From positions 954,617 through 1,018,616 of the forward strand of contig CP064974.1 of assembly GCA_016699385.1 (NCBI GenBank): a DNA stretch of 64,000 nucleotides, in the 5' to 3' direction. Origin of the DNA: Candidatus Moraniibacteriota bacterium (GTDB lineage: Bacteria > Patescibacteriota > Minisyncoccia > Moranbacterales > UBA1568). This document shows, piece by piece, positions 10,846 to 51,217 of this stretch. The translations under genes and the position numbers were made by a program. Position 1 is the stretch's first letter, and the number at the start of each line of letters is the position of its first letter. A model generated the notes under the pieces. That model worked only from the letters and a program-made list of their open reading frames with translations, was not told where the DNA came from and made no database searches.

Positions 10846-10906
10846 AATGATGTCTACTACTTCAAAGTGAAATGAAAGAAGTGGGCATTTGCTTGTATAT
10901 ATACCT

Positions 10907-11587: not shown

Positions 11588-11611
11588 AAGAGGCACTAAA
11601 GGGTATATTTT

Positions 11612-15018: not shown

Positions 15019-15132
15019 AGACGTAAGATTTTGCGTCTTTCCCTGAAGGGCAATAGAGGTGGCGTAAGGAATAGACAAAAACACAAAAGTCTGCGTATCT
15101 ACGTGAAGGACTGATGATATAAAGAACCTCGT

Positions 15133-16503: not shown

Positions 16504-16507
16504 GCGT

Positions 16508-25098: not shown

Positions 25099-25204
25099 GA
25101 TTCGAGAAAATGAGTTTTAAGATGAAATTTTATTGAAATATTTGGTATCTTTCTGAAGAACAGCGTGGGTAGTATATCTTCTTGACACTTCCTTGAGTGG
25201 ATTT

Positions 25205-25549
25205 TTACGACAAGAGTCGGATGCGATGCAGAAGGAAGTCTATATCGGTAGAAACTGCTTTCAAATCTGGGTTTTCGGGAGTTTTCTTGAGAAAGACGAC
25301 AATGCTATCGTATCCGGGGGTGATATGGGGGAGGTTGGGACGCAGAGCCTCTCGTACGAAGCGCTTGATGCGGTTGCGATCGACGGCGCGAGGCGCGGTC
25401 TTCTTACTGACGATGACGGCAAAGCGGCTTTTTTCGAGTGAATTGGGGAGAGATATGAATGAAAAAAGGCTTCCATAAGCCTTCTTTCCGAGACGAAACA
25501 CTCGACGTATCTCCTGATGATTGGATAATCGGTAGGCTCTCGGTATCAT
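25205..25549 (-). CDS. rnpA: RNase P protein component
   Basis: LSNHQEIRRVFRLGKKAYGSLFSFISL...AVIVSKKTAPRAVDRNRIKRFVREA. Sits in the conserved rpmH-rnpA position. Confidence 0.9.
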   Translation of the reverse strand: MIPRAYRLSNHQEIRRVFRLGKKAYGSLFSFISLPNSLEKSRFAVIVSKKTAPRAVDRNRIKRFVREALRPNLPHITPGYDSIVVFLKKTPENPDLKAVSTDIDFLLHRIRLLS

Positions 25550-25561
25550 AGCACACCGTGG

Positions 25562-25696
25562 TTATACCGTGAGTTTCTTTCGCCCTTTTCGTCTTCGTGC
25601 GACAAGAACCTTGCGTCCACCGACGGTTGCGCTCCGCTTGCGGAAGCCATGTCGACGACTGCGCTTCAGTTTCTTTGGTTGATACGTTCGTTTCAT
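25562..25696 (-). CDS. rpmH: 50S ribosomal protein L34
   Basis: [44 protein letters not shown], the 44-aa L34 consensus. The ORF-track ORF was trimmed to this Met. Confidence 0.9.
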
Positions 25697-25869
25697 AGGA
25701 CACTGTCTGATGCAAAAAGTATTTCGAAGTGTACCAAAAGGGAGAAAAAAGTCAAACGGTCGAATTATCCACAGGTTGTGCACAGCCCTTTTTACAAGGG
25801 ATATCGAAGTGGTGTAGTGTGGAGAAGTGAACAACAATTTCTGTGGAAAAGTGGGGAACGAACCGTGTT
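25697..25869. other. Candidate oriC (rpmH-dnaA intergenic) with DnaA boxes
   Basis: Perfect TTATCCACA at 25765..25773, plus TGTGGAAAA (1 mismatch to TGTGGATAA) at ~25838. Divergent gene orientation flips here. The AT-rich dnaA-dnaN spacer (27433..27513) could hold the unwinding element. Confidence 0.6.
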
Positions 25870-27432
25870 ATGAAGTATGAAGAACTCTGGAAAGCAGTCT
25901 TAGGGGAATTGGAACTGTCTGTTTCGAAGGCAAACTTTGAGACATGGCTTTTGAATACAGAGCTTGTATCTATCGAAAACAGCATTGCGCGCATTGCGGT
26001 GGGAAGTCCTTTTACCAAGGAATGGCTGGAGAATCGGTATAATCACATTATTCTTCAAGCACTTCAAAAACAAGATTCGTCTATTCGCGAGATTTCCTGC
26101 TTCATCCGTACATCAACGGATTCGACTCAGAAGATTTCTCCCGCTCCTTCTACTCATACTGTGGAAGTATCTCAATCAGTGGCGCCGGATTCGTCGGAAA
26201 ATTCGCCTTCTCTTCATGTGCATCACACAGAAAAAACATGGGAAGATAACATTGTTTCTCATGACGGTATGAAGAGAGAAATTTCCCCGGAGGCATTGCC
26301 ATCTTCAACGAGGATGTCTCTGGGAGTGTTGCCGGTTCACCCAATAGTTGGTGTTGGTCAGGACAGCCCTCTTCCAGTGTCTGCTCCGATGGTTTCGCAT
26401 CGACCAGTGACATCCAATCTTAATCCTCGCTATACGTTTGAGAATTTCATCATCGGAGAGAATAATGAGTTGGCGCGCGCGGCGTCGTTTGCCGTATCGC
26501 AGAGTCCGGGGACGCTCTACAACCCACTCTTTATCTATGGCGTTGTTGGTGTTGGAAAAACACATTTATTGCAATCGATTGGCAATGAGGCGCGCCGCAA
26601 TCATCCGGACATGGTTGTGCGATATACAACCTCTGAGCAGTTTACCAATGAGCTCATCAATCATATCAAGAATCAGACCATGGAGGACTTCAAGCGATCA
26701 TACCGGGAGATTGATATACTCCTCATTGATGATGTGCAGTTTCTCTCTGGTCGTGAGAAAACGCAGCAAGAATTTTTTCATGTTTTCAATAATCTCCATC
26801 AGCTCAATAAGCAGGTGGTGATTACGAGCGATCGAACGCCACGAGCGATTCCGACTATCGAAGATCGACTGAAGAGTCGCTTCGAAGGCGGTATGATTGC
26901 CGATGTGAGTCGCCCTGATCTCGAGACACGCATGGCGATACTGCGACTCAAATTACTCGAAAAGGGCACAACGCTCGAAGAGGATTGTATTCGTTTCATT
27001 GCGGAAAATATTACTAACAATGCCCGTGAGCTTGAGGGCGCACTCAATCGCGTGCTCGTCTCGGCGGAATTTCAGAAAGTTCGCCCAACGCCTGCCTATG
27101 TCGCCAAGGTGCTCGGACAAATTATCACCGCACACAAACAGACGGTGACGCTTGAGAGTATTACAAAGATTGTCGCGGAGTTCTACAATGTTCCCGAAGA
27201 AGAATTGTACAAAAAAGGGCGCAAGAAAGAGATTGCCCTCGCGCGCCAGACGGCGATGTATCTCGCGCGCACTGAGCTCGACGTTTCACTTTCTGGTGTC
27301 GGTAAGCACTTTGGCGGGCGCGATCATACGACAGTGCTTCATGCGGTTGATCGTATTCAAAAAGATATGGAGAAAGACGGTCATTTCAAAGAAGACATGG
27401 TCAGCTTGCGAGAACGACTGTATCGGGAATAA
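25870..27432 (+). CDS. dnaA: Chromosomal replication initiator DnaA
   Basis: N-terminal MKYEELWKAVLGEL. AAA+ Walker A NPLFIYGVVGVGKTHLLQSIGNEA and Walker B ILLIDDVQFL. C-terminal DNA-binding domain (KKEIALARQTAMYLARTEL...LHAVDRIQ). Confidence 0.95.
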   Translation: MKYEELWKAVLGELELSVSKANFETWLLNTELVSIENSIARIAVGSPFTKEWLENRYNHIILQALQKQDSSIREISCFIRTSTDSTQKISPAPSTHTVEVSQSVAPDSSENSPSLHVHHTEKTWEDNIVSHDGMKREISPEALPSSTRMSLGVLPVHPIVGVGQDSPLPVSAPMVSHRPVTSNLNPRYTFENFIIGENNELARAASFAVSQSPGTLYNPLFIYGVVGVGKTHLLQSIGNEARRNHPDMVVRYTTSEQFTNELINHIKNQTMEDFKRSYREIDILLIDDVQFLSGREKTQQEFFHVFNNLHQLNKQVVITSDRTPRAIPTIEDRLKSRFEGGMIADVSRPDLETRMAILRLKLLEKGTTLEEDCIRFIAENITNNARELEGALNRVLVSAEFQKVRPTPAYVAKVLGQIITAHKQTVTLESITKIVAEFYNVPEEELYKKGRKKEIALARQTAMYLARTELDVSLSGVGKHFGGRDHTTVLHAVDRIQKDMEKDGHFKEDMVSLRERLYRE

Positions 27433-27513
27433 GGGGAAAAGTCCGAGGCATTTGTATTCAAAAAATTCTTATATCATTCGAAATTTAGCATTTGTAATTT
27501 GTATGTAGTGCCT

Positions 27514-28653
27514 ATGAAACTCATGTGTACGCAAGAAAATCTGAAGCGAGCGATTAGTGCAGTGGAGCGGGCAGCGGGAAGGCAGAGTGCACTTCCGGTC
27601 TTGGCAAATGTGCTCATCGAGACAGAGTCGGGGCGACTCAAGCTCTCGGCGACCAATCTCGAAATTGGCATTGTGGCGCGAGTTGGCGCCAAGGTGGAGA
27701 GTGAGGGGAGTCTTACGGTGCCAGTTAAGGTACTCTCGCAGTTTGTGGGGAATCTCCCAGGGACAGAGGTGGCGACGCTCGAGGAAGTGGCGCAGTCACT
27801 TTCTATTTCCTGCGGCGGGTACAAGGTGAAAATAAAAGGACTCCCTGCCACGGATTTTCCAATTATTCCCGCCAAGAAGAATACTAAATCTATAGAGCTC
27901 CCGGCGCAGGCATTTCGGATGGCGCTCTCGAGACTCTTGCCGTGCGTTGCAACGCAAGAAACGAGATTAGAATTGACAGGTGTCAATTTCCTTTTTTCTG
28001 AAAAGGAACTTGCGCTTGCAGCGACAGATAGCTTTCGTCTGGCGGAGGAAATTCTCCCGCTCGAAAAGTTTCTCGAAGAAGACTTGCTCGCCGAAGTGAG
28101 TGCCTCAGGATCGCTCATCCTTCCGGCAGCAACTCTTATGGAAGTATCTCGCGCCATCAGCCCGACACAGAAAACCATTTCCATGACGCTTGATGAGAAT
28201 CAGGTCTTCTTTGAAATGGAAGGCATCGAGGTTATTTCGCGACTTATTCTCGGGAAATTTCCCGACTATAGACAGATTATGCCGCAAGAATTTTCTTTTT
28301 CTGCTGTGATTGAGAAAGAAGCTTTCTTGCGTTCGCTCAAGATTGCGACCGTGTTTGCGGCGGGAGAGATTGCTGTCGAACTTGCTTCCGATGATGGCAA
28401 AGTGCTTGTTGAGGCAGTGTCGAGTGGTGTCGGGGAACAACAAGCAGAAGTTCCGGCGAAGTTTCTTTCTGGAAGCGGACGGCTTCGCGTGGTATTTCCG
28501 CCCAAATCACTCCTTGATGGTGTCGGCTTTATGGAGACGCCGTCTGTTGCGTTTCGCGGGAATACTACAGGGACACCAGTCGCGCTCACAATGACTGATG
28601 AGGATGTGCCTCGCGCCAGCTTTACGTATATCATGATGCCGATACAGAAATAG
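27514..28653 (+). CDS. dnaN: DNA polymerase III beta sliding clamp
   Basis: MKLMCTQENLKRAISAVERAAGRQSALPVLANVLIETESGRLKLSATNLEIGI is the canonical DnaN N-terminus. Three-domain length, directly downstream of dnaA. Confidence 0.9.
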   Translation: MKLMCTQENLKRAISAVERAAGRQSALPVLANVLIETESGRLKLSATNLEIGIVARVGAKVESEGSLTVPVKVLSQFVGNLPGTEVATLEEVAQSLSISCGGYKVKIKGLPATDFPIIPAKKNTKSIELPAQAFRMALSRLLPCVATQETRLELTGVNFLFSEKELALAATDSFRLAEEILPLEKFLEEDLLAEVSASGSLILPAATLMEVSRAISPTQKTISMTLDENQVFFEMEGIEVISRLILGKFPDYRQIMPQEFSFSAVIEKEAFLRSLKIATVFAAGEIAVELASDDGKVLVEAVSSGVGEQQAEVPAKFLSGSGRLRVVFPPKSLLDGVGFMETPSVAFRGNTTGTPVALTMTDEDVPRASFTYIMMPIQK

Positions 28654-37001: not shown

Positions 37002-37952
37002 TTAGAGTGAGGAGAGTTTCTCTTGAAAGACTGCTAAAAGCGCGTGATACATTTTTTCCATACTGGGTCTTTCTTCGGGCGTGAAATAGAGACCAGGCAT
37101 GGAGTTGAGTTCAACAATCCATGGGAATCTGTTTTTGTCGAACATGATGTCGATTGTATAAATCTTTGGTTGAAATGATGAAAAGATTGATTGTGCTCTA
37201 TCAATAATCGGACGGACTGATTGAGGAATATCCTTGTTGTGAATAATCCTTAAACTCCCTCCTTGAGCGAGATTAGCAAGAAAGCTCCCAGATTTTGGCT
37301 CACGTATATAGGCGTATATTATGGCATCGTTAACGAGAATTATACGGAAATCATGCATTTTTGATGATATGTTCGGCACGCCATGGGAGGAATCTATAAA
37401 ATCTTGAATGATATGTTCACCTGAAAATGATATGTCTTTTGCATTTTCTTTTTCAAAAATTTGAATCCCTTTTCCTCCGCTTTCGTTTATCGGTTTTAAT
37501 ACAACTTTTTCTGTTGTAATTTCGGAAATATTTTTTTGAAGCTCTGTCGGATTTCTAACGAGTATGCTTTTCTTGCTCCATTCCTGGAAGAGTAAACTGG
37601 AAAGAAATTTATCATCAATTATTCGAGTAAAGTGCAAATCGTTTATGAAGGAATAGTGCATTCCGATAGATTCTTTTTTGTAGGATGATTCTGCATGACT
37701 TCTTGTCTTGTCGTAGATAATATCCGGAATTATGTCGTGGACACGTTTCCATTGATTATCTTCGTATGTCCATGCGTGACGGAATATATTTTTCTTGTAA
37801 TCATACCACTGGTAGGATGCGCGGTACATCTGAATTCCTCCCTGCTTGCAGAGAGAATAGAATAGTTCGTAAGAATATTGGCGCCCCCTATCGTTAAACG
37901 GAACTTTATTTTCCCAATTGCTTTTCCCGAAGAGGAGGAGTACTTTTCTCAT
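37002..37952 (-). CDS. ATP-grasp family ligase (YheC/YheD- or RimK-like). Strongly AT-rich gene.
   Basis: VLKPINESGGKGIQIF, DFRIILVNDAIIYAYIR and IVELNSMPGL are the ATP-grasp large-domain motifs. It is the last gene of the 4-gene minus-strand operon. Composition is visibly AT-richer than its neighbours. Confidence 0.6.
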   Translation of the reverse strand: MRKVLLLFGKSNWENKVPFNDRGRQYSYELFYSLCKQGGIQMYRASYQWYDYKKNIFRHAWTYEDNQWKRVHDIIPDIIYDKTRSHAESSYKKESIGMHYSFINDLHFTRIIDDKFLSSLLFQEWSKKSILVRNPTELQKNISEITTEKVVLKPINESGGKGIQIFEKENAKDISFSGEHIIQDFIDSSHGVPNISSKMHDFRIILVNDAIIYAYIREPKSGSFLANLAQGGSLRIIHNKDIPQSVRPIIDRAQSIFSSFQPKIYTIDIMFDKNRFPWIVELNSMPGLYFTPEERPSMEKMYHALLAVFQEKLSSL

Positions 37953-37971
37953 AGAAAATTTCTCTGAAGTT

Positions 37972-38895
37972 TTATGAAGAATGTGCTGTAAATTCCAAAT
38001 TAGACATTATGTAAAGAACATTTCGGTGCTCTTCACTGGAAAGGCTTTCTGTTTTTGTTGCCCTTCTCAAGTCACGTATGTATCCTAATTTTTTAGAGAA
38101 ATTTTCAACACATTCTTCCTGTATTGCTTTGAGGAGAGCTGACTGTGTTTGACAGAGCTTTGCTGCAACAAGAAATTCTACTTTGTTGTCTAAAGATATT
38201 ATAGGGAAATGCTTCTCAAGAATTTCCTCACACAAGTAAATTATGGATTGGTATATATCGGTGTTTTCTTGTAGGGGTTTTTTGTTGTAGAATTCTGACT
38301 CTCCAATAATGCAGTGTGTGAAATAGTAAAGACTTAGTTCGGCGTATTCGTTTGTATCAGGATAGTGTTTCTCGGCGATATGAAGGAGATTTTCAGGGTG
38401 AAACAGTGTAGAATCTTGCAAGATTCCCCTGGTAAGGTAGAGGAAATTTATACCGAGTGTAGAGAGTGCTATGAGTGAATGAGGATCATTGAGAAGTGTC
38501 TTTGCATAGAATTGAAGGATATCTTTAGGTATCGCAAGAAGAACTCTCTCTCGGATGTCAACTCTAAAAATGGTCTTTAGAAATAACCACTTGAAAAGTA
38601 GCGCATTGTATTGGGTAATCCAAGGATATTTTTCGAGCGCGAATTGTCTTTGATGTAGAAATCTTCTTGAGTGTTCTGCAACAGGGTTCTTTACGTTCTC
38701 TAGGATTTCTTCAATGTTTTCAAGAAAAAAATCTTTTAAAGAAATTAATCTTTTCTCATAGCAGGACTCTTGTGTCCATAGAAATAATCTCGAGTTGAAG
38801 TGGAACTGCTTGGCTTTTGAAAGCGATTCCATGTTATCGCAATAAGTTTTCAGAACTTTTTGTTGAATAGACTTCGTGACTTCCCTTGGAGACAT
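37972..38895 (-). CDS. Hypothetical protein (307 aa), AT-rich. It sits inside the ATP-grasp operon. No signal peptide and no recognised motif.
   Basis: Open frame in operon context: 19 nt upstream of the next gene, 11 nt downstream of the previous one. Confidence 0.5.
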   Translation of the reverse strand: MSPREVTKSIQQKVLKTYCDNMESLSKAKQFHFNSRLFLWTQESCYEKRLISLKDFFLENIEEILENVKNPVAEHSRRFLHQRQFALEKYPWITQYNALLFKWLFLKTIFRVDIRERVLLAIPKDILQFYAKTLLNDPHSLIALSTLGINFLYLTRGILQDSTLFHPENLLHIAEKHYPDTNEYAELSLYYFTHCIIGESEFYNKKPLQENTDIYQSIIYLCEEILEKHFPIISLDNKVEFLVAAKLCQTQSALLKAIQEECVENFSKKLGYIRDLRRATKTESLSSEEHRNVLYIMSNLEFTAHSS

Positions 38896-38906
38896 AGAAT
38901 GATTTT

Positions 38907-40316
38907 TTATTTCGTTACGTCCACTAAAAACTTCCGTAGATTCTTTTTTCCAATAATAACGGGATAGTCTAATTCCGAACGGTCGATGAGGGTAACTTTT
39001 GTGAGGATAACAAACGAATTTATGACAACTTGTATTTCTATCTTAATTCGATACGTGGTGCCATGCGAAGACTTTACTGGGACAGATGAAACAACATTCG
39101 GAATTCCCTCGAACATTTTCCATCGTGTTTCACGGTCGAGTGCAGAGAGGTTCCCCCATGTTTTTTGCGCACTCTGATAGCCATCCACAGTTTCCCCAAA
39201 TCCCAACTCTCGTGCAAGCTCGGTATCAATCGAGGTGGAGTCGGCGCCGGTGTCTATTTTTGCTTCAACTTCTATTTCTTTGCCGTTTTTGCCGATGAGT
39301 TTCACTTTTTCTACGGTGCCAATGATTTTCTTGCCGGAGATTTCCTCAAGTTCTTCTTCAATCTCGCCACCGAAGAGATCCATGCCCATACGTAAACCCT
39401 TCTCGACGGTTTTGATGGTGAGTCCTGAGACGCGCTCGAGTCGACCTTTTAGTCCATCAAGGTTGGCGACTTGTATCGAGAGTCCCGGGCGAGCATTTAG
39501 TTCGAGGAAGACTGGGCCGCGATCGCGATCGATAGCGACGTCAGCGCCGAGGAATCCGAGTCCGGAGACTTGCTGTGCTTCGATCGCCATTTTGAGGATA
39601 TCTTTCCAATAGGGGATGCGGATACCAGAGAGGACAAGTCGGGTGCCGGGGATGTTCTCGATGATGCGATTCTTGCCCCAGACGGCGGTTGTTGTTGTCC
39701 CGGAGGCGAGGTCTATGCCGACGCCGATTGCGCCCTGTTGGAGGTTGGCGCGTCCGCCGGACTCTTTGGTTGGGAGGCGGAGCATCGCCATGACGGGCAC
39801 CTTGTTGTAGATGACGATGCGAATATCAGGGACGCCCTTGAAGGTGTATGGCTTGAAAAGTTTGAGGAGTTTCAGTCGCTCTTCAAAGAATGCGGAGTCG
39901 GGGATATTTGCGAGTGAAAAGGAACCATCGAGAATATTTCGGATATGTGTTTTCAAATCTTCAATTGTAACAAGGGATCCGTCTGCCTTGATCCAGGTGT
40001 GCTCGGTATCCTTTTTCTTCCCATAGACGACGATGATTCCTTCGCCGCCAAAGCCGTGATTTGGCTTTAGGGCAAAGCTCCCAGGAAGGGATGACCAGTC
40101 GAAATTCTCGATCTCGTGTGCATCTTTGATACGAGCAAGGAGGGCGGGAACAGGGAGCTCATGCTTGGTGAGGAGTCGCTTGCACGCCATTTTGTCGTCG
40201 GCGAGACGCTTTGCTCGGCGCTTGTTGTAAGGGCGCAGATAGTCGAGATTGCGTGCATTCATGCCGAGAATATCCCGACTTCTTTTCCAGGCTTCGAGAA
40301 AGTGGAACATAGACAT
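38907..40316 (-). CDS. Fusion protein: RimK-related alpha-L-glutamate-ligase-like ATP-grasp (N-terminal) plus a retropepsin-like 'putative ATP-dependent zinc protease' domain (C-terminal)
   Basis: The N-terminus RDILGMNARNLDYLRPYNKRRAKRLADDKMACKRLLTKHELPVPALL matches the RimK-related E-ligase family signature. The C-terminal ~130 aa carry AKIDTGADSTSID ... LIDRSELDYPVIIGKKNLRKFLVD, the aspartic-protease D-T-G-A motif and fold signature of the PF05618-type domain. Confidence 0.7.
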   Translation of the reverse strand: MSMFHFLEAWKRSRDILGMNARNLDYLRPYNKRRAKRLADDKMACKRLLTKHELPVPALLARIKDAHEIENFDWSSLPGSFALKPNHGFGGEGIIVVYGKKKDTEHTWIKADGSLVTIEDLKTHIRNILDGSFSLANIPDSAFFEERLKLLKLFKPYTFKGVPDIRIVIYNKVPVMAMLRLPTKESGGRANLQQGAIGVGIDLASGTTTTAVWGKNRIIENIPGTRLVLSGIRIPYWKDILKMAIEAQQVSGLGFLGADVAIDRDRGPVFLELNARPGLSIQVANLDGLKGRLERVSGLTIKTVEKGLRMGMDLFGGEIEEELEEISGKKIIGTVEKVKLIGKNGKEIEVEAKIDTGADSTSIDTELARELGFGETVDGYQSAQKTWGNLSALDRETRWKMFEGIPNVVSSVPVKSSHGTTYRIKIEIQVVINSFVILTKVTLIDRSELDYPVIIGKKNLRKFLVDVTK

Positions 40317-40319
40317 TTC

Positions 40320-40973
40320 CTATGATTTCAACAATTTCGAAAACCGCAGGTATTCCGAAAGACGTAATCCTCTCCATCGACCGAGGAAAATATTGACCGG
40401 AATCGTGAGGAGGACAATCCAGGGTGAGAGGAGGAGGATACTTGCAAGTACCTGAGAGCGCGCGAGGAAATACCCGATGAGAGAGATAAAGAGCGTCTCG
40501 GTGGCGAGAATGAGTGCGGTTTTGTCACCTTTTTCGATTTGCGTGGCGACAAATTTCTCGACCAGGGTAATCATGATGAGGAGCGGAAAGATAGAGACGG
40601 AAGCGAGTCCGGTGCGATGGAGGTAACCGCCGGCAACGAGTATGCCAAGGATAACGATGGCGACGATAGTGAGGGTAATCGCGACGCGCGGGAGATAGAG
40701 GAGGCGGAGTCTTCGGAGGAGGAGTCGCGAGAGCATGCCAATTAAGATGATGCTCACAAAGATGGCGATGCCGTATTTGAGTCCGCCCGGATCAAATGCA
40801 AGAAAGGCAAAGGTGACAATTGATGGCGTGTAGATGCCAAATGCCTTGATACCGACGACTTGTCGGAAAAAGGCGACGAGTGTGACGATGAGTGGGAACA
40901 TGAGTATGTACCGAATTGTATCGATGGGAACTCCCTGGTCGATGAAGTTGAGAAAGAGAGGGTGGAGAGACAT
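40320..40973 (-). CDS. Seven-TM membrane protein, the first gene of the ATP-grasp operon. It is the candidate 7TM partner known from RimK-like peptide-ligase systems.
   Basis: 217 aa with seven evenly spaced hydrophobic helices. The stop is 3 nt before the next gene's start. Confidence 0.5.
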   Translation of the reverse strand: MSLHPLFLNFIDQGVPIDTIRYILMFPLIVTLVAFFRQVVGIKAFGIYTPSIVTFAFLAFDPGGLKYGIAIFVSIILIGMLSRLLLRRLRLLYLPRVAITLTIVAIVILGILVAGGYLHRTGLASVSIFPLLIMITLVEKFVATQIEKGDKTALILATETLFISLIGYFLARSQVLASILLLSPWIVLLTIPVNIFLGRWRGLRLSEYLRFSKLLKS

Positions 40974-44892: not shown

Positions 44893-44942
44893 TCCCTCGG
44901 GGATTTATTTTCGAGGATTTGTCTACAGGCTGGCGGGGATGT
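44893..44942 (+). repeat. 50-bp direct repeat, copy A, upstream of ORF 44979
   Basis: CCCTCGGGGATTTATTTTCGAGGATTTGTCTACAGGCTGGCGGGGATGT is identical to 45995..46044. Both copies sit 35-40 nt before an SD and an ATG. Confidence 0.8.
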
Positions 44943-44978
44943 GTCTCGTCTTTCAAAGTTTTACGAAAGGAGGTGGTG

Positions 44979-45397
44979 AGATGAGTGCTCGTGAAATAAG
45001 GCAGGCTATTCGTGGCGCAGTACTGTCGTCTGTGAATAGGATCAATTTATGTGGTGATCGCATATTTCAGATGAGTTGGGATAGCGACTCCGCAAATATT
45101 CTGAAATGCTTACTCAAAAATGATATCGTTAAGGAACGATACGTTCGTGAGCAACTGGACATTCGATTAAAAGCACTGGGTCGTTCCTGTTTTGAGCAAT
45201 ATAAGCGTGGCAAATACCCAGATCGTGTACTTTCGCCACAAGCTCTCGCATATGCGCTTCAGCATGGAGAATTCACTCCGGAAGAAAAAGCTGTCATACG
45301 GTTTAATCACGGTGATACAAAAGGGACATTTGTTCGAACATTTAATAGGGATGATCAGTTGCTCCAAAAGGTGTTTGACCAACTAATCTCTACGTAA
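44979..45397 (+). CDS. Hypothetical protein (139 aa)
   Basis: An AGGAGGTG SD 6 nt upstream of the ATG. Protein-like composition (MSAREIRQAIRGAV...). Preceded by the 50-bp repeat. Confidence 0.5.
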
Positions 45398-45489
45398 TTT
45401 TGAACAATTTCTAACTTCTTGTTAAAAGCGAATATTCTATCCAAAATAAGAATATTTGCTTTTTTCTTTCTCAAAATCTTTCCAAATCT

Positions 45490-45540
45490 TTACGGATGCA
45501 CGACACAGAGGACTTCGTCGAGGGAATTTTCTTTGCTGTT
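45490..45540 (-). pseudogene. Remnant of a PilB/GspE-family gene 3' end (last ~16 codons plus stop)
   Basis: The minus strand translates to ...SKENSLDEVLCVVHP*. Compare the intact C-terminus of the adjacent ATPase gene, ...EGETSLDEVLRVVHP* (46989). Nucleotide identity is ~75% over 65 bp with 46965..47030. Confidence 0.6.
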
Positions 45541-45994
45541 TTCCCTTTATTGCGCTACAATCAAGCTATGCAGAACTGGTCAACCGATATCGCTGAACTC
45601 AAAAAAGATCCGGAGCAATACGCGCTGTGGCGTCTTGAGCATTTGGTGAATTTTGGTCTGGGCGGAGAACGAATCGATTAAAAAGAATTTCGGAAGTATT
45701 GGAGCAAAATGACTTTGGATCCGAACAAAAAAATTACCTCACTCTGCTTTTATGGCCGAAACAATCCTGAGCGAAAATCAAAGAAAAGTTTTGGAAGCAG
45801 TGAGTATGAATCCGATGGTGTGTGAAAACTTTCACTTGATTGAAGGATTATCAAGTAGTGAAGGCTTCTTCTTCAAGATATAAGGTATTCATTCTTGACG
45901 GAATACGAATTCCGCGTTATTGTGGAGTGTCGTTCTTTGAGGTCTTGGTAGGGAGTACATTAACAAAGCGGATGTATGGAACGATAGATGGTAC

Positions 45995-46044
45995 TCCCTC
46001 GGGGATTTATTTTCGAGGATTTGTCTACAGGCTGGCGGGGATGT
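45995..46044 (+). repeat. 50-bp direct repeat, copy B
   Basis: Identical 49-50 nt to copy A. Followed by a GGAGGAT SD and ATG at 46080. The downstream reading frame appears disrupted. Confidence 0.8.
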
Positions 46045-46330
46045 TTGCCTTTCTTAAAAATGTATTGGAGGATATTGAAATGAAAAGTCTGCATGACATG
46101 AATGGGCTGTCGAACAGATTGCGGAGGCGAAAAAATTGGATAGGGGTGTCTATGCGCGGTTTTTCGGGGCAGAGATCTGGGTGTTTTCTTGGGATACACC
46201 GAAAGATGTCGCTGATCGCATTTTCTCTGTATCACGAGAGAAGTCGGTGGAAGATCAATCGACCCATGAAGTGCGATTGAAAACTCGCTATGGGAGCTGA
46301 ACTATTGCCCTTTTGGGCGGAGGTGATGTG

Positions 46331-46894
46331 ATGAATAAAAATTGGGTTCCGGTGTGGACGCTTTTTCATGGGGATCAGCTGCGAAGACAGGAAAGTGAAA
46401 TCGAGTATTCCGGGGAGAAGTGCTGGATAAAAGGTATAGGATCCTCGCAACATTTTTGGATTTGTATACCAAACAAGAAGCTTTTGCCTCATGCTCACAT
46501 ATTCCTGTTTCACGGAAGCTTTGTCCCATTTGGAATGAGTCCTCGGGTTAAGGAGTTGTCTTGGTGTTGGTGTAGCGACCTTGAGCAGAGGGATTTTCCG
46601 ATTGTTCATAATGATGAAATGCTCTACAGTGCGACGACGAGTAAGCAAAGTGCATCTCCTTTAAATTTCAAGGGAGTTGATACACGCCTTTTTGGATTCA
46701 GTGGATTGAGAAGATTAAGTCATGAAAACGGAAGGCTTACGCATCAAAGTATGTACACACTTGCTCTGGCGATTCCAAGAGGTGATGAGTGTATGGTTAT
46801 TCTCATGTTTCGAGAGCGATCGCTTCAGCCTATATATCGTATGGTTCGAAGTCTGCCGAAAGAGGTAATTGTTGAAACGGCAAGTAGCTATTGA
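46331..46894 (+). CDS. Hypothetical Trp/Cys-containing protein (187 aa)
   Basis: A GGAGGTGA SD 4 nt before ATG 46331 (MNKNWVPVWTLF...). No recognised domain. Confidence 0.4.
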   Translation: MNKNWVPVWTLFHGDQLRRQESEIEYSGEKCWIKGIGSSQHFWICIPNKKLLPHAHIFLFHGSFVPFGMSPRVKELSWCWCSDLEQRDFPIVHNDEMLYSATTSKQSASPLNFKGVDTRLFGFSGLRRLSHENGRLTHQSMYTLALAIPRGDECMVILMFRERSLQPIYRMVRSLPKEVIVETASSY

Positions 46895-46988
46895 TGGATA
46901 AACGTCGGTCGCTACGTGCAAGTCTTGTTTAAATTCAAAAAGCCGACGCAGTGCGCCGGCTTCTAACTTTCTCAAAGTTCTCCATTTG

Positions 46989-49900
46989 TCATGGATGCAC
47001 CACGCGCAACACTTCGTCGAGAGAGGTTTCGCCTTCGAGGGCTTGGAGGACGCCGTCCATGAGCATGGTGATCATGCCGTTTTGTATGGCTTTTTCTTCG
47101 AGTTCGATATTGAGGGCACCACTCATGATGAGATGCTGAATCTCTTTGTCGAGTTCTAACACTTCGCTCAAGACGAGGCGTTTTTTGTATCCGGTGCCGT
47201 TGCACTTTTCACAACTCCCAGCGACCCAGTGCTCGCTAGGGATTTCCGGCACGACAATCGCAGATTTCTCATTGAACATGCCGAGGACTTTTGAGACGGT
47301 TTCACGAATCTCCCCATCGAGAGGTGCCTTCTTCTTGCAGTCGCAGAGACGGCGGACGAGGCGCTGCGCCATGTAGGTGCCGCCGGCATTGACGATGTCG
47401 TCGGGGCGCACGCCCATGGAAATGAGGCGTGGGATGCTTCCGGCGGCGTTGTTGGTGTGGAGGGTGGCGATGACGAGGTGTCCTGTGAGCGCGGCCTGGA
47501 AGGCTATTTCGGCGGTTTCGTCGTCGCGGATTTCGCCAATCATGACGATGTTGGGGTTCTGGCGCAGGAGTGAGCGGAGAGCGGACGAGAAGGTATAGCC
47601 GCCCTCTTCGTTTACCTGCGTCTGCAGAATTCCGGAAAGTTGATATTCTATCGGGTCTTCGACGGTGATGATTTTTATCTCCGGCGTTTTGACAAAATCA
47701 ATCAGGCTGTAGAGGGTTGTTGTCTTGCCGCTTCCGGTAGGACCGGTGTTTAAGATGATGCCGGTTGGTCTCTTGACACCGTCCAAGAGGTGGTGGAGCG
47801 TTTGCTCGCGGATGCCGATCGTATGAATGTCGAGTGCGACTGCGCCGCGATTTAAGAGTCGCATCACGACGGTTTCGCCGAAGCCGCCGAGAATGATAGA
47901 GACGCGAATGTCGAATTTCTGCTCGCTCGTTCCGGTAAGGGGTGATTCGGTCTTGACCATGAATCGACTATCTCGAATGCCGGCGCGCTCTTCGGTACGG
48001 AGTCCGGAGAGCAGTTTAATATCACCGAGAATCGATGGATATTCATTCATGGGGAGTGTTGCGACAGTTTGGAGGACGCCGTCGATACGGAAGCGAACAT
48101 CGACGGAATTTTCCTGCGGTTCGATATGAATGTCATTGGCATTGGTGATGAGTGCGCCGGAGAAAATATATTTGAGTGCTTCGCGTTGCTCAGCTTCTTC
48201 GACGAGCGCGCTGAAATGTTCGAACGAGTCGAGGCTCTTCTCTGTCTCCTTGAGAATCATGTCTTCAATCGGGAAGGCGCGGGCAAGTGTTTGTGACATG
48301 AGTTCGTCGTACATGTCTTCGAGGAATTCGGTTTGTCCGGTGACGCGCCAGACTTCATCGAGCGAGGTGTCACCGGTAATCGCCTTCAAGATGCCGTCTT
48401 GCGCCATGGTGACCATGCCATCCTCGAGAGCCTCTTTCATGATGTCGTTCTCGCTTGCGAGCGAGACGATTTTTTCAGTGATAGCATCGGAGATGGTGAG
48501 GACCTCGAAGATACCAATACGACCTTTGTAGCCAGTACCATTGCAATGAAGACATCCCTTTGGTCTCCAGAGACTCTGTATTTCCTTTGGAATGTCTATC
48601 TTTGCTTTGGGGGAGATGAGTGAAAGTATCTCTTTGAGGGAATTCGATGTTTCTTTGGCGGGTTCGTAGGATTCTTTGCATTCGGGACAGAGGATGCGGA
48701 CAAGGCGCTGAGCGATGAAGGCGTTTACGGCATTGGGAATCGTATTGGGACGCACACCCATTTCGATGAGGCGCGCAACACTGCCAGCGGCGTTGTTGGT
48801 GTGGAGAGTCGAGAGGACGAGGTGACCGGTGAGCCCGGCATTCACGGCGATATTCGCAGTTTCGTCATCGCGGATTTCACCGACCAGTATCACATCCGGA
48901 TCCTGACGGACGATGGAGCGAAGTCCCATGGCGAAGGTATAGTTCCGACTTCTTGATACCTGTGTCTGTGTAATGTTGGGAATTTCATATTCTATCGGGT
49001 CTTCGATAGTGATGATTTTTGTTTCGGGAGTGTTGAGCTTGCGGAGTATGGCGTAGAGGGTCGTGGTCTTGCCGCTTCCTGTGGGGCCGGTATTGAGGAC
49101 GATGCCAGTTGGCTTTTGGAAGGCGCGCTCGACTTGTTCGTAGGCGAGACCGCGGAGCCCAAGTATGGAGATATCTTGCAGGGCGGTTTCTTGATCGAGG
49201 AGTCGCATGACGAGACTCTCGCCGAAGTTGCCCGGTATACTCGAGACGCGGATGTCTATTTTCCGTGAATCGAGATTGAGCGAGAAATGCCCGTCTTGGG
49301 ATTTGTCTCGGATATTGAGTTTCATTTTTCCAAGCATCTTGACGCGCGAGAGGAGGAGAGGATAGATACTCCCGGGAAAGCGCCCAATGTCTTGGAGGAC
49401 GCCGTCGATTCGGTAGCGAAGTCGAATCTCATTTTTTTCTTCCGGTTCGAGATGAATGTCGCTTGCGCGGAGTTTGATGGCGCCGACCATGACGGTTTCG
49501 AGTACCTGCGTTGTGGGAATTTCGAGAATGCGATTTTTGAGGGCGAGAAGATTGCCAAATTCTTGTTCGAATTTTTCTAGGTCATTATCAGAGAGATTGA
49601 CTTTGAGATGATCGAGATAGTCGAGGAAGAGTGGTTTTTTGTAGACATTCCAGGCGTGTTCGAGTGAAGGACGTGAAGCAACATAAAGCTTGGCAGTAAG
49701 TCCTTCACGCTCTTCGAATGCTCGGAGATAGTCGAGTGCTTTTTGGTTATCGGGGTCGAGAATGGCGACGCGAATTTCTTTACCCCGTTTTTGAAAAAGG
49801 GCGATGCCAAGTGATGTGGCGTCTCCTTCGGGAATGATTGATGCACGCTCTGTGTCGATGGGGAAAATATGCAAGTCAACGTAGGGGAGCCGCGCTCCAT

Positions 49901-50027
49901 GAGCGAGCGCAGCGGCTTCGCTTTCTTCCGAAGAACGCTTGAGGGTGGTGAGAATTTTGGCGGTTTGCTGTTCGCGTTCGTCACGGAAATCTGCGGGTGA
50001 GGCATTGCGAGGAAGAACTTTGACCAT
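46989..50027 (-). CDS. Tandem-fused double PilB/GspE-family secretion/pilus-assembly ATPase (1012 aa; two complete ATPase units in one polypeptide)
   Basis: Unit 1 (residues ~1-600): a GspE-N-like domain, Walker A GPTGSGKTT, a His box, a CPECK...CLHCNGTGYKGR tetracysteine, GDTSLDEVWRVTG. Unit 2 (residues ~600-1012): a second GPTGSGKTT, VEDPIEYQ, CDCKKK...CEKCNGTGYKKR, GETSLDEVLRVVHP. Continuous ORF with no internal stop. Confidence 0.8.
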   Translation of the reverse strand: MVKVLPRNASPADFRDEREQQTAKILTTLKRSSEESEAAALAHGARLPYVDLHIFPIDTERASIIPEGDATSLGIALFQKRGKEIRVAILDPDNQKALDYLRAFEEREGLTAKLYVASRPSLEHAWNVYKKPLFLDYLDHLKVNLSDNDLEKFEQEFGNLLALKNRILEIPTTQVLETVMVGAIKLRASDIHLEPEEKNEIRLRYRIDGVLQDIGRFPGSIYPLLLSRVKMLGKMKLNIRDKSQDGHFSLNLDSRKIDIRVSSIPGNFGESLVMRLLDQETALQDISILGLRGLAYEQVERAFQKPTGIVLNTGPTGSGKTTTLYAILRKLNTPETKIITIEDPIEYEIPNITQTQVSRSRNYTFAMGLRSIVRQDPDVILVGEIRDDETANIAVNAGLTGHLVLSTLHTNNAAGSVARLIEMGVRPNTIPNAVNAFIAQRLVRILCPECKESYEPAKETSNSLKEILSLISPKAKIDIPKEIQSLWRPKGCLHCNGTGYKGRIGIFEVLTISDAITEKIVSLASENDIMKEALEDGMVTMAQDGILKAITGDTSLDEVWRVTGQTEFLEDMYDELMSQTLARAFPIEDMILKETEKSLDSFEHFSALVEEAEQREALKYIFSGALITNANDIHIEPQENSVDVRFRIDGVLQTVATLPMNEYPSILGDIKLLSGLRTEERAGIRDSRFMVKTESPLTGTSEQKFDIRVSIILGGFGETVVMRLLNRGAVALDIHTIGIREQTLHHLLDGVKRPTGIILNTGPTGSGKTTTLYSLIDFVKTPEIKIITVEDPIEYQLSGILQTQVNEEGGYTFSSALRSLLRQNPNIVMIGEIRDDETAEIAFQAALTGHLVIATLHTNNAAGSIPRLISMGVRPDDIVNAGGTYMAQRLVRRLCDCKKKAPLDGEIRETVSKVLGMFNEKSAIVVPEIPSEHWVAGSCEKCNGTGYKKRLVLSEVLELDKEIQHLIMSGALNIELEEKAIQNGMITMLMDGVLQALEGETSLDEVLRVVHP

Positions 50028-50080: not shown

Positions 50081-51217
50081 CTATCGTGCTGGTTGCAATT
50101 TTTCAAGCATGAGCGTCTCTGCTTCTTCGAGGGACGCAGTGGGAAGAGAAATATCGAGCGTATCGTTTCGAAGTTTTGATTCTGGAAAATGCTCGGCTAT
50201 CTCTGAGAGGAGATTGTTGGTGTGACACTTGAGCAGGGCCCGTGTCTGTGTGGGCGACTCGGCAGACAGAATCATGAAAAGTGAACCAACAGAAGAATGG
50301 TGACGAATTTTTTCGAGAATAAGGGGAAGATCTTCGAGACGCGACCGGGACTGGACGATGTCGTCTGGCGTGACGCGCGCCCACATGAGCCGGCGCTCTT
50401 CATTCCATTTGAGTCCTGCCATGACGCGTCCCCAGAGCTTGAGGAGGGAGAGCGGTTGCGTGTTGACGAGACGGAAAATGATATCGTGCTGATCAGCACC
50501 CTTGTCCATGAGGCGTGATGCAGCACCGAGCGCACTTGGGGAGAGATTCTTCTTCTGAAAGCTCTCTGTGCCGAGGACGATACCGGCAAGCAAGAGCCCT
50601 GCGACGCGAGCATCGAGGTGCTTCCCGTCTATTTTTTCGAGGAGCGTTGTCGCTGTTTCACTTGTTGATGATGTGGTGATATCGATGATGTTGACCTGTC
50701 CGAAGCGATCGTTTTCGGCATGATGATCGATGGTGATTATGGGAACTTCGTAGAAGATGTCTGGATTGGTTTCGAATATCTTTCCGAGTGATTCTTTGTC
50801 TGGTGCCCCGACAGTGATGGCGAGGTCAAAGGAGAACTTGGCTGGAACGAATGAAAAGTCTCGCGGATCAATCGAGCCTTTTTCTGGCGTGATGAAGATG
50901 TTGTATTCGCTTTCGCCGCGCTCGGTTCGGACAGAGACGATGTCGTTGTGTTCGGTGTTGAAGGAGAGGATGAACTCGCGCACGCCTGAAATGGAAGGAA
51001 GTATGTGTTCGGGCGGCTTGAGAAAGCCGAAAGGTTCTGCGATAGCAGTTATGCCACTGCCGGCGATGGTGACCTCTTTGCCAATGTTTTCGAGAAAGGC
51101 GCCGATGCCAGACGCTGCGCCGAAGGCATCGCCACTTGCGTGTTCGGGGACGAGGATGAGGATGTTTGTGGACTTCTCGATGAGTTCTTTGACTTGGAGT
51201 TCGGGAGGGAGGGACAT
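50081..51217 (-). CDS. nrnA: DHH-DHHA1 phosphoesterase (NrnA-like nanoRNase / pAp phosphatase)
   Basis: ILILVPEHASGDAFGAASGIG, PIITIDHHAEN (DHH motif) and a C-terminal DHHA1-like GGHxxAAG region (GKIF...). Confidence 0.75.
   Translation of the reverse strand: MSLPPELQVKELIEKSTNILILVPEHASGDAFGAASGIGAFLENIGKEVTIAGSGITAIAEPFGFLKPPEHILPSISGVREFILSFNTEHNDIVSVRTERGESEYNIFITPEKGSIDPRDFSFVPAKFSFDLAITVGAPDKESLGKIFETNPDIFYEVPIITIDHHAENDRFGQVNIIDITTSSTSETATTLLEKIDGKHLDARVAGLLLAGIVLGTESFQKKNLSPSALGAASRLMDKGADQHDIIFRLVNTQPLSLLKLWGRVMAGLKWNEERRLMWARVTPDDIVQSRSRLEDLPLILEKIRHHSSVGSLFMILSAESPTQTRALLKCHTNNLLSEIAEHFPESKLRNDTLDISLPTASLEEAETLMLEKLQPAR

What the first reader, a model, noticed from the sequence alone, without database searches (positions are those of the whole stretch)
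46989..50027. Covalently fused tandem PilB/GspE ATPase (two complete ATPase units, 1012 aa)
Secretion and type IV pilus assembly ATPases are ~500-600-aa proteins that form homohexamers. Here one uninterrupted ORF encodes a GspE-N-like domain followed by two full N2-plus-catalytic units. Each unit has its own Walker A (GPTGSGKTT), Asp and His boxes, tetracysteine zinc motif (CPECK/CLHCNGTGYKGR and CDCKKK/CEKCNGTGYKKR) and the C-terminal G(D/E)TSLDEV signature. Such a pseudo-dimeric fusion would give a trimer-of-fused-dimers motor with two non-equivalent active-site sets, an arrangement known for a few other AAA+/RecA-like motors but unusual for this family. The partial third copy of the gene's 3' end 1.5 kb away (finding above) suggests the fusion arose through local tandem duplication.
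Basis: seen in the sequence. Interest (0 to 1): 0.65.

Follow-up and report, generated by a model that had tools for sequence, protein, structure and literature searches.

The report
Natural tandem-fused pilus assembly ATPase
A tiny uncultured bacterium (Moranbacteria) encodes a pilus-assembly motor in which two complete, apparently active ATPase units are joined in one chain; this real and conserved but seemingly undescribed variant would probably build the usual six-unit ring from three chains instead of six.

Summary
ORF 46989-50027 (-) encodes 1012 aa: one GspE-N/MshEN-type N1 domain, then two full PilB/GspE units (46% identical), each with Walker A, Asp box, Walker B, His box and four cysteines.

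It is not an assembly artefact. More than 130 homologues of about 1005-1030 aa come from independent assemblies, including a closed 1.09 Mb genome, and 16 species-representative genomes carry it, mostly Moranbacteria/Parcubacteria. Catalytic residues of both units are invariant across 65 sequences. dN/dS is 0.02 (unit 1), 0.08 (unit 2) and 0.30 (junction).

The fusion is ancient. The window's two units are never sisters (0/100 bootstraps), and the same TsaE/DHH/ATPase/RuvB gene order holds down to 43% identity. The claimed third copy is a non-significant 38-nt patch and says nothing about origin.

Both units are extension-type, not PilT. A 1460-aa triple-unit relative exists.

Best explanation, inferred and not shown: three chains form a pseudo-hexameric ring with alternating non-equivalent sites, mirroring the proposed PilC/GspF trimer with its six cytoplasmic domains. 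No pilus genes lie in the window or beside any homologue, and AF2 did not fix the inter-unit geometry.

I found no description in the literature. Verdict: new variant of a known kind.

The parts
46989..50027 (-). Whole gene: tandem-fused PilB/GspE-type ATPase, 1012 aa plus stop codon
   Evidence: ORF list; Pfam and NCBIfam; 90%-identical orthologue in closed genome CP064989.1; dN/dS 0.05 overall
49647..49892 (-). Single N1 domain (T2SSE_N / MshEN fold), residues 46-127; the relaxed c-di-GMP-binding motif is not found
   Evidence: Pfam PF05157 E 1.3e-7; regex for the relaxed MshEN motif of PMC5013675 finds nothing in residues 1-170
48339..49508 (-). Unit 1 (N2 domain + catalytic domain), residues 174-563; Walker A 314-321 (nt 49065-49088); Zn-type CxxC...CxxC
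   Evidence: scored alone: GspE 484 / PilB 454 bits vs PilT 179; dN/dS 0.018
48183..48338 (-). Junction, residues 564-615. The first ~20 residues contain invariant positions (G564 F568 L569 Y573 L576 M577 R583); helices follow that lead into the second N2 domain
   Evidence: Continuous reading frame; invariant columns in the 65-sequence alignment; AF2: 565-583 pLDDT < 50, helices 589-627 confident; dN/dS 0.30
46992..48182 (-). Unit 2 (N2 domain + catalytic domain, no N1), residues 616-1012; Walker A 762-769 (nt 47721-47744); invariant C895-x-C897...C939-xx-C942
   Evidence: scored alone: GspE 393 / PilB 378 bits vs PilT 151; dN/dS 0.076
50081..51217 (-). DHH-family phosphoesterase gene 53 nt upstream on the same strand; a conserved partner gene (possible operon)
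   Evidence: Pfam DHH; found immediately upstream in 18 of 20 double/triple-unit loci and in L086 at 43% ATPase identity
45494..45531 (-). The 'third copy': a 38-nt patch resembling the gene's last 13 codons; not significant and not part of the system
   Evidence: tblastn E 0.7, no blastn hit at E <= 0.01; 76% over 38 nt

Best explanation
The gene encodes the assembly (extension) motor ATPase of a type IV pilus-like machine in a Moranbacteria (Parcubacteria/CPR) cell, in a natural 'linked-dimer' form: N1 - [N2-CTD] - conserved junction - [N2-CTD]. Shown: both units are complete PilB/GspE-type ATPases with all catalytic residues conserved, both are under strong purifying selection, and the fusion is ancient and inherited vertically across Parcubacteria. 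Inferred: three chains assemble into one six-unit ring (a pseudo-hexamer, A-B-A-B-A-B). In such a ring one N2:CTD 'packing unit' forms within a chain and the next between chains. ATP turnover passes around the ring through alternating unit-1 and unit-2 sites, so both must stay active. Only three N1 anchoring domains remain per ring. This 3 x 2 organisation would mirror the platform protein PilC/GspF, which is itself an internal duplication (Cyto1/Cyto2) and has been modelled as a trimer whose six cytoplasmic domains each contact one ATPase N2 domain. The two N2 domains would then be free to specialise, which fits the unit-specific substitutions clustered in one N2 motif. The likely cellular role is pilus extension for attachment and/or DNA uptake, as generally proposed for CPR bacteria.
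For: Architecture and motifs. Extension type rather than PilT: each unit scores GspE/PilB well above PilT, and the AF2 units superpose on PilB/PilF cores 5IT5, 5ZFR and 5TSH at TM 0.89-0.90, with PilT and DotB far weaker. Real and conserved: all 120 listed hits are about 1005-1031 aa apart from one 911-aa partial and the 1460-aa triple-unit protein, and they come from NCBI, JGI, ENA and Logan; 134 of 270 fetched proteins carry two full units; 16 GTDB species representatives have single-ORF doubles; there is a closed-genome orthologue. Both sites active: Walker A Lys, Asp-box Glu, Walker B, His-box His and the N2 arginines (R260/R275 and R708/R723) are invariant in 65 sequences and intact in 14 divergent sequences, the window protein plus 13 cluster representatives; dN/dS is 0.018 and 0.076. 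Ancient: 46% identity between units; window unit 1 + unit 2 sister in 0/100 bootstraps; unit-1 and unit-2 clades at 78% and 83%; synteny is kept at 43% identity. In-ring model: fusions of 2 units (common) and 3 units (P0014, 1460 aa) both divide 6. The packing unit is N2D(n)+CTD(n+1), and nucleotide is sensed by N2 arginines (PMC5424180, PMC6858323). A PulF trimer: PulE hexamer model has one Cyto domain per N2D (PMC10790770). Specialisation: 10 positions are conserved within each unit but differ between them, six of them in the N2 motif 213-265 / 654-713, including QDGH (unit 1) versus RDSR (unit 2) at the canonical QDGR. Type IV pili and comE are reported in patescibacterial bins that include two Moranbacteria bins (PMC9530719).
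Against: No oligomeric state was measured or modelled. The AF2 monomer has pTM 0.52, so the relative placement of the units is undefined. No pilC, pilM, pilT, pilD or pilin gene lies anywhere in the 64-kb window or within 10 kb of any homologue examined, so the link to a pilus machine rests on homology and on general reports for the phylum. All solved PilB hexamers are C2 (CCOCCO), whereas a trimer of dimers has at most C3 chain symmetry: opposite positions would hold different unit types, which is compatible only if the units are functionally near-equivalent. Neither unit alone reaches the NCBIfam equivalog cut-offs for GspE or PilB. The Geobacter-to-window residue mapping uses a constant offset checked at three motifs, not a structure alignment.
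Confidence: 0.55

Rival explanations
1. Stacked double-ring motor: six chains form two coaxial hexameric rings (twelve sites), one made of unit 1 and one of unit 2, as in ClpB, p97/NSF or KaiC. Only one ring would contact the membrane platform.
For: Tandem ATPase domains in one chain usually give stacked rings in other ring ATPases (general knowledge). The roughly 50-residue junction with helices could act as an inter-ring spacer. AF2 does not fix the geometry (pTM 0.52).
Against: In this family the ring is held together by N2D(n):CTD(n+1) packing units (PMC5424180, PMC6858323). Both units keep a full N2 domain and the nucleotide-sensing arginines, as expected if both sit in a platform-facing ring. 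The triple-unit relative P0014 would need three stacked rings, yet fits a single six-unit ring as a dimer. A distal ring would have no platform partner, but unit 2's N2 domain is as conserved as unit 1's (0.67 vs 0.66).
Confidence: 0.15
2. Assembly or sequencing artefact: two adjacent pilB paralogues were merged by loss of a stop and a start.
For: Separate, overlapping tandem pilB paralogue genes do exist in Omnitrophota (L049, L052, L061, L064), so the unfused arrangement occurs in nature.
Against: More than 130 full-length double-unit homologues come from independent projects and assemblers. There is an orthologue in a closed 1.09 Mb genome and collinear 81% DNA identity over 4.3 kb. The junction contains invariant residues, has dN/dS 0.30, and has no stop or frameshift.
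Confidence: 0.01
3. Bifunctional extension-plus-retraction motor: unit 1 acts as PilB and unit 2 as a PilT-like retraction ATPase, or the fused enzyme drives both directions as CpaF does in Tad pili.
For: No pilT is seen near the gene. A single bifunctional ATPase is known for Tad pili (PMC6920026, listed; mentioned in PMC11656802). Unit 2 evolves about three times faster than unit 1 and has unit-specific N2 changes.
Against: Unit 2 scores as GspE/PilB (393 / 378 bits), not PilT (151 bits, cut-off 319), keeps the four-cysteine region and the PilB-type C-terminal GETSLDEV, and clusters among PilB-type units. Whether pilT is present elsewhere in the genome could not be tested.
Confidence: 0.1
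4. Not a pilus motor: the fused ATPase works with its conserved neighbours (DHH phosphoesterase, RuvB) in a nucleic-acid process, or in a secretion or competence pseudopilus rather than a surface pilus.
For: The DHH-ATPase pair and nearby ruvB are conserved from 43% to 90% identity, while pilus genes are never adjacent. The top NCBIfam score is GspE rather than PilB. DNA uptake is the function proposed for CPR pili (PMC9530719).
Against: The same block also holds TsaE, PolA, RuvC and YebC, i.e. generic housekeeping synteny in a streamlined genome. T4aP genes are typically scattered over several loci (PMC6668835). PilB/GspE-type ATPases are known to work only with PilC/GspF platforms (general knowledge).
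Confidence: 0.15

Closest known systems
PilB / PilF type IV pilus extension ATPases (Geobacter metallireducens PilB 5TSG/5TSH/6OLJ; Thermus thermophilus PilF 5IT5/5OIU/6F8L; Myxococcus PilB 3JC8)
   Same: Same fold and motifs in each unit: N2 domain plus catalytic domain, Walker A, Asp box, atypical Walker B, His box, four-cysteine region, C-terminal signature. About 41-42% identity and TM 0.89-0.90 per unit. An N-terminal T2SSE_N/MshEN-fold domain is present.
   Different: All solved and characterised members carry one ATPase unit per chain and form homohexamers. Here two units (three in P0014) share one chain, with one N1 domain per two units, a conserved junction element and unit-specific N2 substitutions. 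PilF's extra length comes from repeated N-terminal GSPII domains, not from a second ATPase.
GspE type II secretion ATPase (Vibrio 4PHT, 1P9R; engineered GspE-Hcp1 hexamers 4KSR/4KSS)
   Same: Best sequence matches in the PDB (E 1e-100) and the top NCBIfam model. In GspE, N1 binds GspL. The engineered Hcp1 fusion shows that covalent assistance promotes ring formation.
   Different: GspE works in diderm type II secretion. Each unit scored alone falls below the GspE equivalog cut-off (484 and 393 vs 630 bits). The fusion here is natural and joins ATPase to ATPase.
Engineered covalently linked ring ATPases (e.g. linked Msp1 dimers forming trimers of dimers, PMC12793716)
   Same: Two ATPase protomers in one chain assembling into a pseudohexameric trimer of dimers. 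The design allows subunit-specific mutation.
   Different: Those are artificial constructs of AAA+ proteins. This one is natural, belongs to the PilT/VirB11-like family and is evolutionarily old.
PilC/GspF platform protein (internal duplication Cyto1-TM/Cyto2-TM; PulF trimer model, PMC10790770)
   Same: The partner protein is itself a fused tandem duplicate proposed to act as a trimer presenting six domains to the six N2 domains of the ATPase. The fused ATPase would adopt the same 3 x 2 logic.
   Different: It is a different protein family. The match in stoichiometry is inferred, not shown.
Separate tandem pilB paralogue genes in Omnitrophota (L049, L052, L061, L064)
   Same: Two PilB-type genes sit head-to-tail and overlap by a few bases: the unfused equivalent of the same gene arrangement.
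   Different: They are two polypeptides, and whether they form mixed rings is unknown.

Membership tests
PilT/VirB11-like secretion ATPase superfamily (Pfam T2SSE, PF00437) | Significant match to the family model over the N2 + catalytic core | tested here: met
   PF00437 E 1.7e-219 with two full-length stretches; each unit matches the unit HMM over about 400 residues
PilT/VirB11-like secretion ATPase superfamily (Pfam T2SSE, PF00437) | Walker A, Asp box, atypical Walker B and His box all present | tested here: met
   Present in both units and invariant across 65 homologues
PilT/VirB11-like secretion ATPase superfamily (Pfam T2SSE, PF00437) | Assembles into a six-unit ring | not testable with these tools
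   Only a monomer could be modelled (pTM 0.52). The pseudo-hexamer is inferred.
GspE/PilB extension-ATPase subfamily | Scores as GspE/PilB rather than PilT, DotB or VirB11 | tested here: met
   Unit 1: 484 / 454 bits vs PilT 179. Unit 2: 393 / 378 vs 151. The fold search ranks PilB, PilF and GspE far above PilT and DotB.
GspE/PilB extension-ATPase subfamily | Four-cysteine zinc-binding region in the catalytic domain | tested here: met
   Unit 1 has CxxC...CxxC. Unit 2 has CxC...CxxC, with all four Cys invariant in the 55-90% identity subfamily. Metal binding itself was not tested.
GspE/PilB extension-ATPase subfamily | N-terminal N1 (T2SSE_N/MshEN-fold) domain | tested here: met
   PF05157 at residues 46-127, E 1.3e-7. 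It is present once, before unit 1 only.
NCBIfam equivalogs TIGR02538 (PilB) and TIGR02533 (GspE) | Whole-protein score above the curated cut-off from a single orthologous unit | tested here: not met
   The full protein exceeds the cut-offs only because the two units add up (826 and 870 bits). Each unit alone is below them (454 and 378 vs 675.65; 484 and 393 vs 630.25).
Type IV pilus system (functional membership) | Co-occurrence with pilC, pilM/N/O, prepilin peptidase and pilins in the same genome | not testable with these tools
   None lie in the 64-kb window or within 10 kb of homologues. Whole genomes could not be scanned. PMC9530719 reports type IV pili in patescibacterial bins that include two Moranbacteria bins.
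c-di-GMP-binding MshEN domains | Tandem 24-residue RLGxx(L/V/I)(L/V/I)xxG(L/V/I)(L/V/I)xxxxLxxxLxxQ motifs | tested here: not met
   The relaxed motif from PMC5013675 has no match in residues 1-170
PilT/PilU retraction ATPases | Score above the TIGR01420 cut-off; no zinc-cysteine region | tested here: not met
   179 and 151 bits vs cut-off 319.1; the cysteine region is present in both units

The most novel reading that the evidence does not exclude
A natural, ancient 'linked-dimer' PilB forms a three-chain pseudo-hexamer whose alternating, non-equivalent units have co-specialised with the Cyto1 and Cyto2 domains of a trimeric PilC platform (3:3 chain stoichiometry). The rare triple-unit form would make a two-chain, intrinsically C2 ring. 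This would be the first natural heteromeric-by-fusion motor in the PilT/VirB11 family. It would also be a ready-made system for unit-specific mutagenesis to settle how ATP turnover travels around these rings (C2 or C3, sequential or paired).
Probability: 0.35. Interest if true: 0.7.

Novelty: new variant of a known kind. Interest (0 to 1): 0.55.

Why it matters
How PilB-type motors couple ATP turnover to rotation or thrust of the platform protein is still argued from homohexamer structures, in which individual sites cannot be mutated separately. A naturally fused two-unit motor (and a three-unit one) fixes the order of units in the ring. It shows that evolution tolerates, and then maintains for a very long time, two non-identical active sites, and it offers a native scaffold for unit-specific mutants. 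Its 3 x 2 layout is independent comparative support for the proposed PilC/GspF trimer with six ATPase contacts. It is also a lineage marker for Moranbacteria and related Parcubacteria, ultra-small bacteria whose pili are thought to be central to attachment and DNA scavenging. Current annotation hides the architecture under the generic name 'GspE/PulE family protein'.

Tried and rejected
1. Assembly artefact: rejected.
2. Third gene copy as evidence of a recent local duplication: rejected. The match is a 38-nt, 76% patch with tblastn E 0.7, and the spacer is unrelated in the closest genome.
3. PilB-PilT fusion: rejected.
4. Degenerate pseudo-ATPase unit: rejected for this family. It does apply to unit 1 of the unrelated singleton P0137, which has lost the Walker A lysine.
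5. c-di-GMP-binding MshEN motif: not found.
6. Pilus genes in the window or next to homologues: none found.
7. Internal translation start for unit 2: no ATG at a usable distance from the single SD-like AAGGAG in the junction. GTG and TTG starts were not excluded.
8. AF2 monomer to obtain inter-unit geometry: inconclusive (pTM 0.52). Coordinates and PAE are not available, so which packing unit is intrachain could not be read.
9. Double-length matches in Omnitrophota, Saccharimonadia and Armatimonadota: these are two adjacent genes, not fusions.
10. Independent origin of the fusions in P0128, P0133 and P0137: their units pair at 100% bootstrap. All three are singletons, and P0133 keeps ruvB downstream, so intragenic gene conversion is an equally good explanation for it.
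11. P0137-type T2SSF + 2 x T2SSE as a family: the double form is a singleton; only the single-unit T2SSF + T2SSE form recurs.
12. Monophyly of all unit-2 sequences including the deep branches: unresolved (38% bootstrap).
13. Literature: eight full-text searches and six papers checked found no description of tandem or fused PilB/GspE units. Subscription-only literature is not covered.
Full report

Yes. The window holds one uninterrupted ORF at 46989..50027 on the minus strand, 1012 aa with an ATG start and no ambiguous bases. Pfam finds a T2SSE_N/MshEN-fold domain at residues 46-127 and two full T2SSE stretches. The NCBIfam GspE and PilB models each match twice.

Residues 174-562 align to 616-1009 at 46% identity, E 2e-124.
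- Walker A GPTGSGKT at 314 and 762
- GEIRD at 383 and 831
- the TGH...H His box at 400 and 848
- CPEC447/CLHC492 in unit 1, and C895-D-C897/CEKC939 in unit 2
- G(D/E)TSLDE at 552 and 999

Two small corrections. The first cysteine pair of unit 2 is CxC rather than CxxC, and the junction spans residues 564-615 rather than 590-610. The DNA reads straight through the junction.

**2. Is it an artefact?**

No.
- A search of 5.8 billion proteins returned 120 listed hits of about 1005-1031 aa at 55-90% identity, apart from one 911-aa partial and the 1460-aa protein discussed below. They come from NCBI, JGI, ENA and Logan assemblies, and those with a source name are labelled Moranbacteria, Moraniibacteriota, Parcubacteria or Patescibacteria.
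- Of the 270 proteins fetched, 134 have two near-full units in one chain.
- The 90%-identical orthologue lies in a closed 1,088,644-bp genome, CP064989.1. It is collinear with the window at 81% DNA identity over 4.3 kb.
- In species-representative genomes, 16 loci carry a single-ORF double ATPase.
- The junction contains residues that are invariant across 65 sequences: G564, F568, L569, Y573, L576, M577, R583.
- dN/dS against the closed-genome orthologue is 0.018 for unit 1, 0.076 for unit 2, 0.30 for the junction and 0.05 overall (dS is near saturation, so these values are approximate).

**3. How rare and how old is it?**

An exhaustive phmmer search of 1.84 billion 50%-identity representatives found 15,161 family members at E <= 1e-30. 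Only about 14 of them are full-length double-unit representatives, plus a few junction-spanning fragments. The architecture is therefore rare in the family, roughly 0.1% of clusters, but deep (40-52% identity to the window).

In a neighbour-joining tree of separated units:
- The window's unit 1 and unit 2 are never sisters (0/100 bootstraps).
- The core unit-1 clade has 78% support and the core unit-2 clade 83%.
- Monophyly of all unit 2 including the deepest branches is unresolved (38%).

Gene order supports orthology where the tree cannot. TsaE(-)/DHH(+)/double ATPase(+)/variable spacer/RuvB(+) is kept in 18 of 20 double- or triple-unit loci and in a 43%-identity member. Named members of the deep clusters are labelled 'Parcubacteria group' or 'Candidatus Paceibacterota'.

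Three singletons (P0128, P0133, P0137) have units that pair with each other at 100% bootstrap. This means either independent duplication or intragenic gene conversion. P0133 keeps ruvB downstream, which favours conversion.

One protein, P0014 (1460 aa), has three units. Both of its extra units fall inside the unit-2 clade, and it sits beside the same TsaE and DHH genes.

**4. The 'third copy'.**

It is a 38-nt patch (45494-45531) at 76% identity to the last codons of the gene. The tblastn match has E = 0.7 and blastn reports nothing at E <= 0.01.

It lies in the spacer of about 2 kb between the ATPase gene and ruvB. That spacer has no Pfam-recognisable ORFs and is unrelated to the spacer in CP064989.1. 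It contains its own 65-nt direct repeat. In relatives the same spacer carries AbiEii, DUF6922 or DUF559 genes, so it is an insertion hot-spot. It says nothing about the origin of a fusion whose halves are 46% identical.

**5. What kind of ATPase is each unit?**

Scored separately, unit 1 gives GspE 484 and PilB 454 bits against PilT 179. Unit 2 gives 393 and 378 against 151. Both are therefore extension-type, and the idea of a PilB-PilT fusion is rejected. Neither unit alone reaches the equivalog cut-offs (630 and 676 bits), so I file the protein in the GspE/PilB subfamily and not as an orthologue of either.

AF2 with a 65-sequence alignment gives mean pLDDT 78.6 and pTM 0.52. The domains are confident, but the arrangement between units is undefined. 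Residues 565-583 are low-confidence and helices 589-627 lead into the second N2 domain.

Foldseek superposes a unit on the PilB/PilF cores 5IT5, 5ZFR and 5TSH at TM 0.89-0.90 and rmsd about 3 A, while PilT and DotB are far weaker. All solved relatives are single-unit chains. The N1 domain lacks the relaxed c-di-GMP-binding MshEN motif.

**6. Are both sites functional?**

The Walker A lysine, Asp-box glutamate, Walker B and His-box residues of both units are invariant in 65 sequences. They are also intact in 14 divergent sequences, the window protein plus 13 cluster representatives.

I mapped residues onto Geobacter PilB using a constant offset of 11. The offset was checked at E357 to E346 and at T411/H413/H420 to T400/H402/H409. 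On that mapping, the nucleotide-sensing N2 arginines R271 and R286 of Geobacter PilB (PMC5424180) correspond to R260/R275 in unit 1 and R708/R723 in unit 2, all invariant. This mapping is an inference, not a structural alignment.

Conservation is similar in the two units: N2 domains 0.66 and 0.67, catalytic domains 0.73 and 0.66 mean pairwise identity.

The units are nevertheless not equivalent. Ten aligned positions are conserved within each unit but differ between them. Six of them cluster in one N2 motif. At the canonical QDGR position, the window's subfamily has QDGH in unit 1 and (R/K/V)DSR in unit 2, together with a 7-9-residue insertion in unit 2.

**7. Most likely mechanism.**

Published structures show the ring is built from packing units N2D(n)+CTD(n+1), with nucleotide held between adjacent packing units, and that PilB hexamers adopt a C2 CCOCCO state (PMC5424180, PMC6858323). 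PulF/GspF has been modelled as a trimer whose six cytoplasmic domains (3 x Cyto1 + 3 x Cyto2) each bind one N2 domain of the ATPase hexamer (PMC10790770).

The simplest reading is that three fused chains make one six-unit ring with alternating unit types. One packing unit would be intrachain and the next interchain, and there would be three N1 domains per ring. In a C2 cycle each state then involves one unit-1 site and one unit-2 site, which explains why both stay active. The 3 x 2 layout matches the platform trimer and would allow the two N2 domains to specialise.

The triple-unit variant fits the same ring as a dimer, since 2 and 3 both divide 6. That argues against stacked rings. All of this is inference: no oligomer was measured or modelled here.

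**8. Function in the cell.**

No pilC, pilM, pilT, pilD or pilin genes occur in the 64-kb window or within 10 kb of any homologue examined. T4aP genes are typically dispersed over several loci (PMC6668835). Patescibacterial bins that include two Moranbacteria bins are reported to encode type IV pili and comE (PMC9530719). A role in pilus extension for attachment or DNA uptake is therefore likely but untested.

The tightly linked DHH phosphoesterase gene lies 27-53 nt upstream in the loci where I measured the gap, and is conserved down to 43% ATPase identity. It may be co-transcribed, and its relevance is unknown.

**9. Novelty.**

The sequences have been public for years under generic names, for example KKU82539.1 'General secretory pathway protein E', 1009 aa. 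Eight full-text searches, together with reading the main mechanistic, evolutionary and review papers, found no mention of tandem or fused PilB/GspE units. Subscription-only literature could not be searched.

I rate this a new variant of a known kind. It is moderately interesting in itself, and more so if the three-chain ring and co-specialisation with PilC are confirmed.

Noticed in passing
window 4175-17665 (+), with integrase at 1112-2044 (-): A type IV secretion / conjugation-like gene cluster: PrgI-family protein (7605-8084), VirB4/TraG-type P-loop ATPase (9025-10845), a 456-aa protein with a T4SS_pilin domain (15133-16503), and several large ORFs with no Pfam match (4175-6217, 6244-7605, 12310-15018, 16469-17665). 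A tyrosine recombinase lies next to it, and GC skew changes sign near 4 kb. This is possibly an integrated conjugative element in a CPR genome.
   Followed up: partly
window 44893-44957 and 45995-46059; spacer 44942-46934: A 65-nt direct repeat (89% identity; the 27-nt core is exact, with 0 matches expected by chance) lies inside a spacer of about 2 kb between ruvB and the ATPase gene. The spacer has no recognisable genes and is unrelated to the same spacer in the closest genome. In relatives the spacer holds AbiEii/DUF6922 (L086) or DUF559 (L009) genes, so it looks like an insertion hot-spot.
   Followed up: partly
window 50081-51217 (-): A DHH-family phosphoesterase gene lies 53 nt upstream of the ATPase on the same strand. 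The pair is conserved in 18 of 20 double/triple-unit loci and in a 43%-identity member (27-nt gap there). This could be an operon, but the functional link is unknown.
   Followed up: partly
L004 10001-14383 (protein P0014, 1460 aa): A triple-unit version of the same ATPase, with three Walker A motifs and three full units. Both extra units fall inside the unit-2 clade. It has the same TsaE/DHH neighbours. It is a single sequence on one 77-kb contig.
   Followed up: partly
L088 10001-13144 (protein P0137, 1047 aa): In a non-CPR genomic context (sulfatases, ECF sigma factor, MoxR/BatA), one chain carries two soluble T2SSF (PilC/GspF cytoplasmic-domain) repeats followed by two ATPase units. The first unit has lost the Walker A lysine (GPTGSGTTT). 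The double form is a singleton. A recurrent family of about 610-640 aa with T2SSF plus one T2SSE unit exists; one member is labelled Candidatus Brocadiia.
   Followed up: partly
L049, L052, L061, L064 (Omnitrophota; about 9.8-13.3 kb in L049, L052 and L061, about 4.9-8.4 kb in L064): Two separate full-length pilB-type genes sit head-to-tail and overlap by a few bases, with a shorter gene giving a partial unit match (probably pilT) just upstream. This is an unfused counterpart that might form mixed rings.
   Followed up: no
window 24307-28653: yidC (24307-25098, -), dnaA (25843-27432, +) and dnaN (27499-28653, +) mark the chromosomal origin region, yet the GC-skew sign change in the window is near 4 kb rather than here.
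   Followed up: no
window 37002-40973 (-): A conserved block of two ATP-grasp (RimK-like / sugar-transfer-associated) genes, one of them fused to a Zn-protease-like domain, a DUF3541 gene and a 7TM_transglut membrane protein. The same block follows RuvC in relatives (L001, L003, L005, L086).
   Followed up: no
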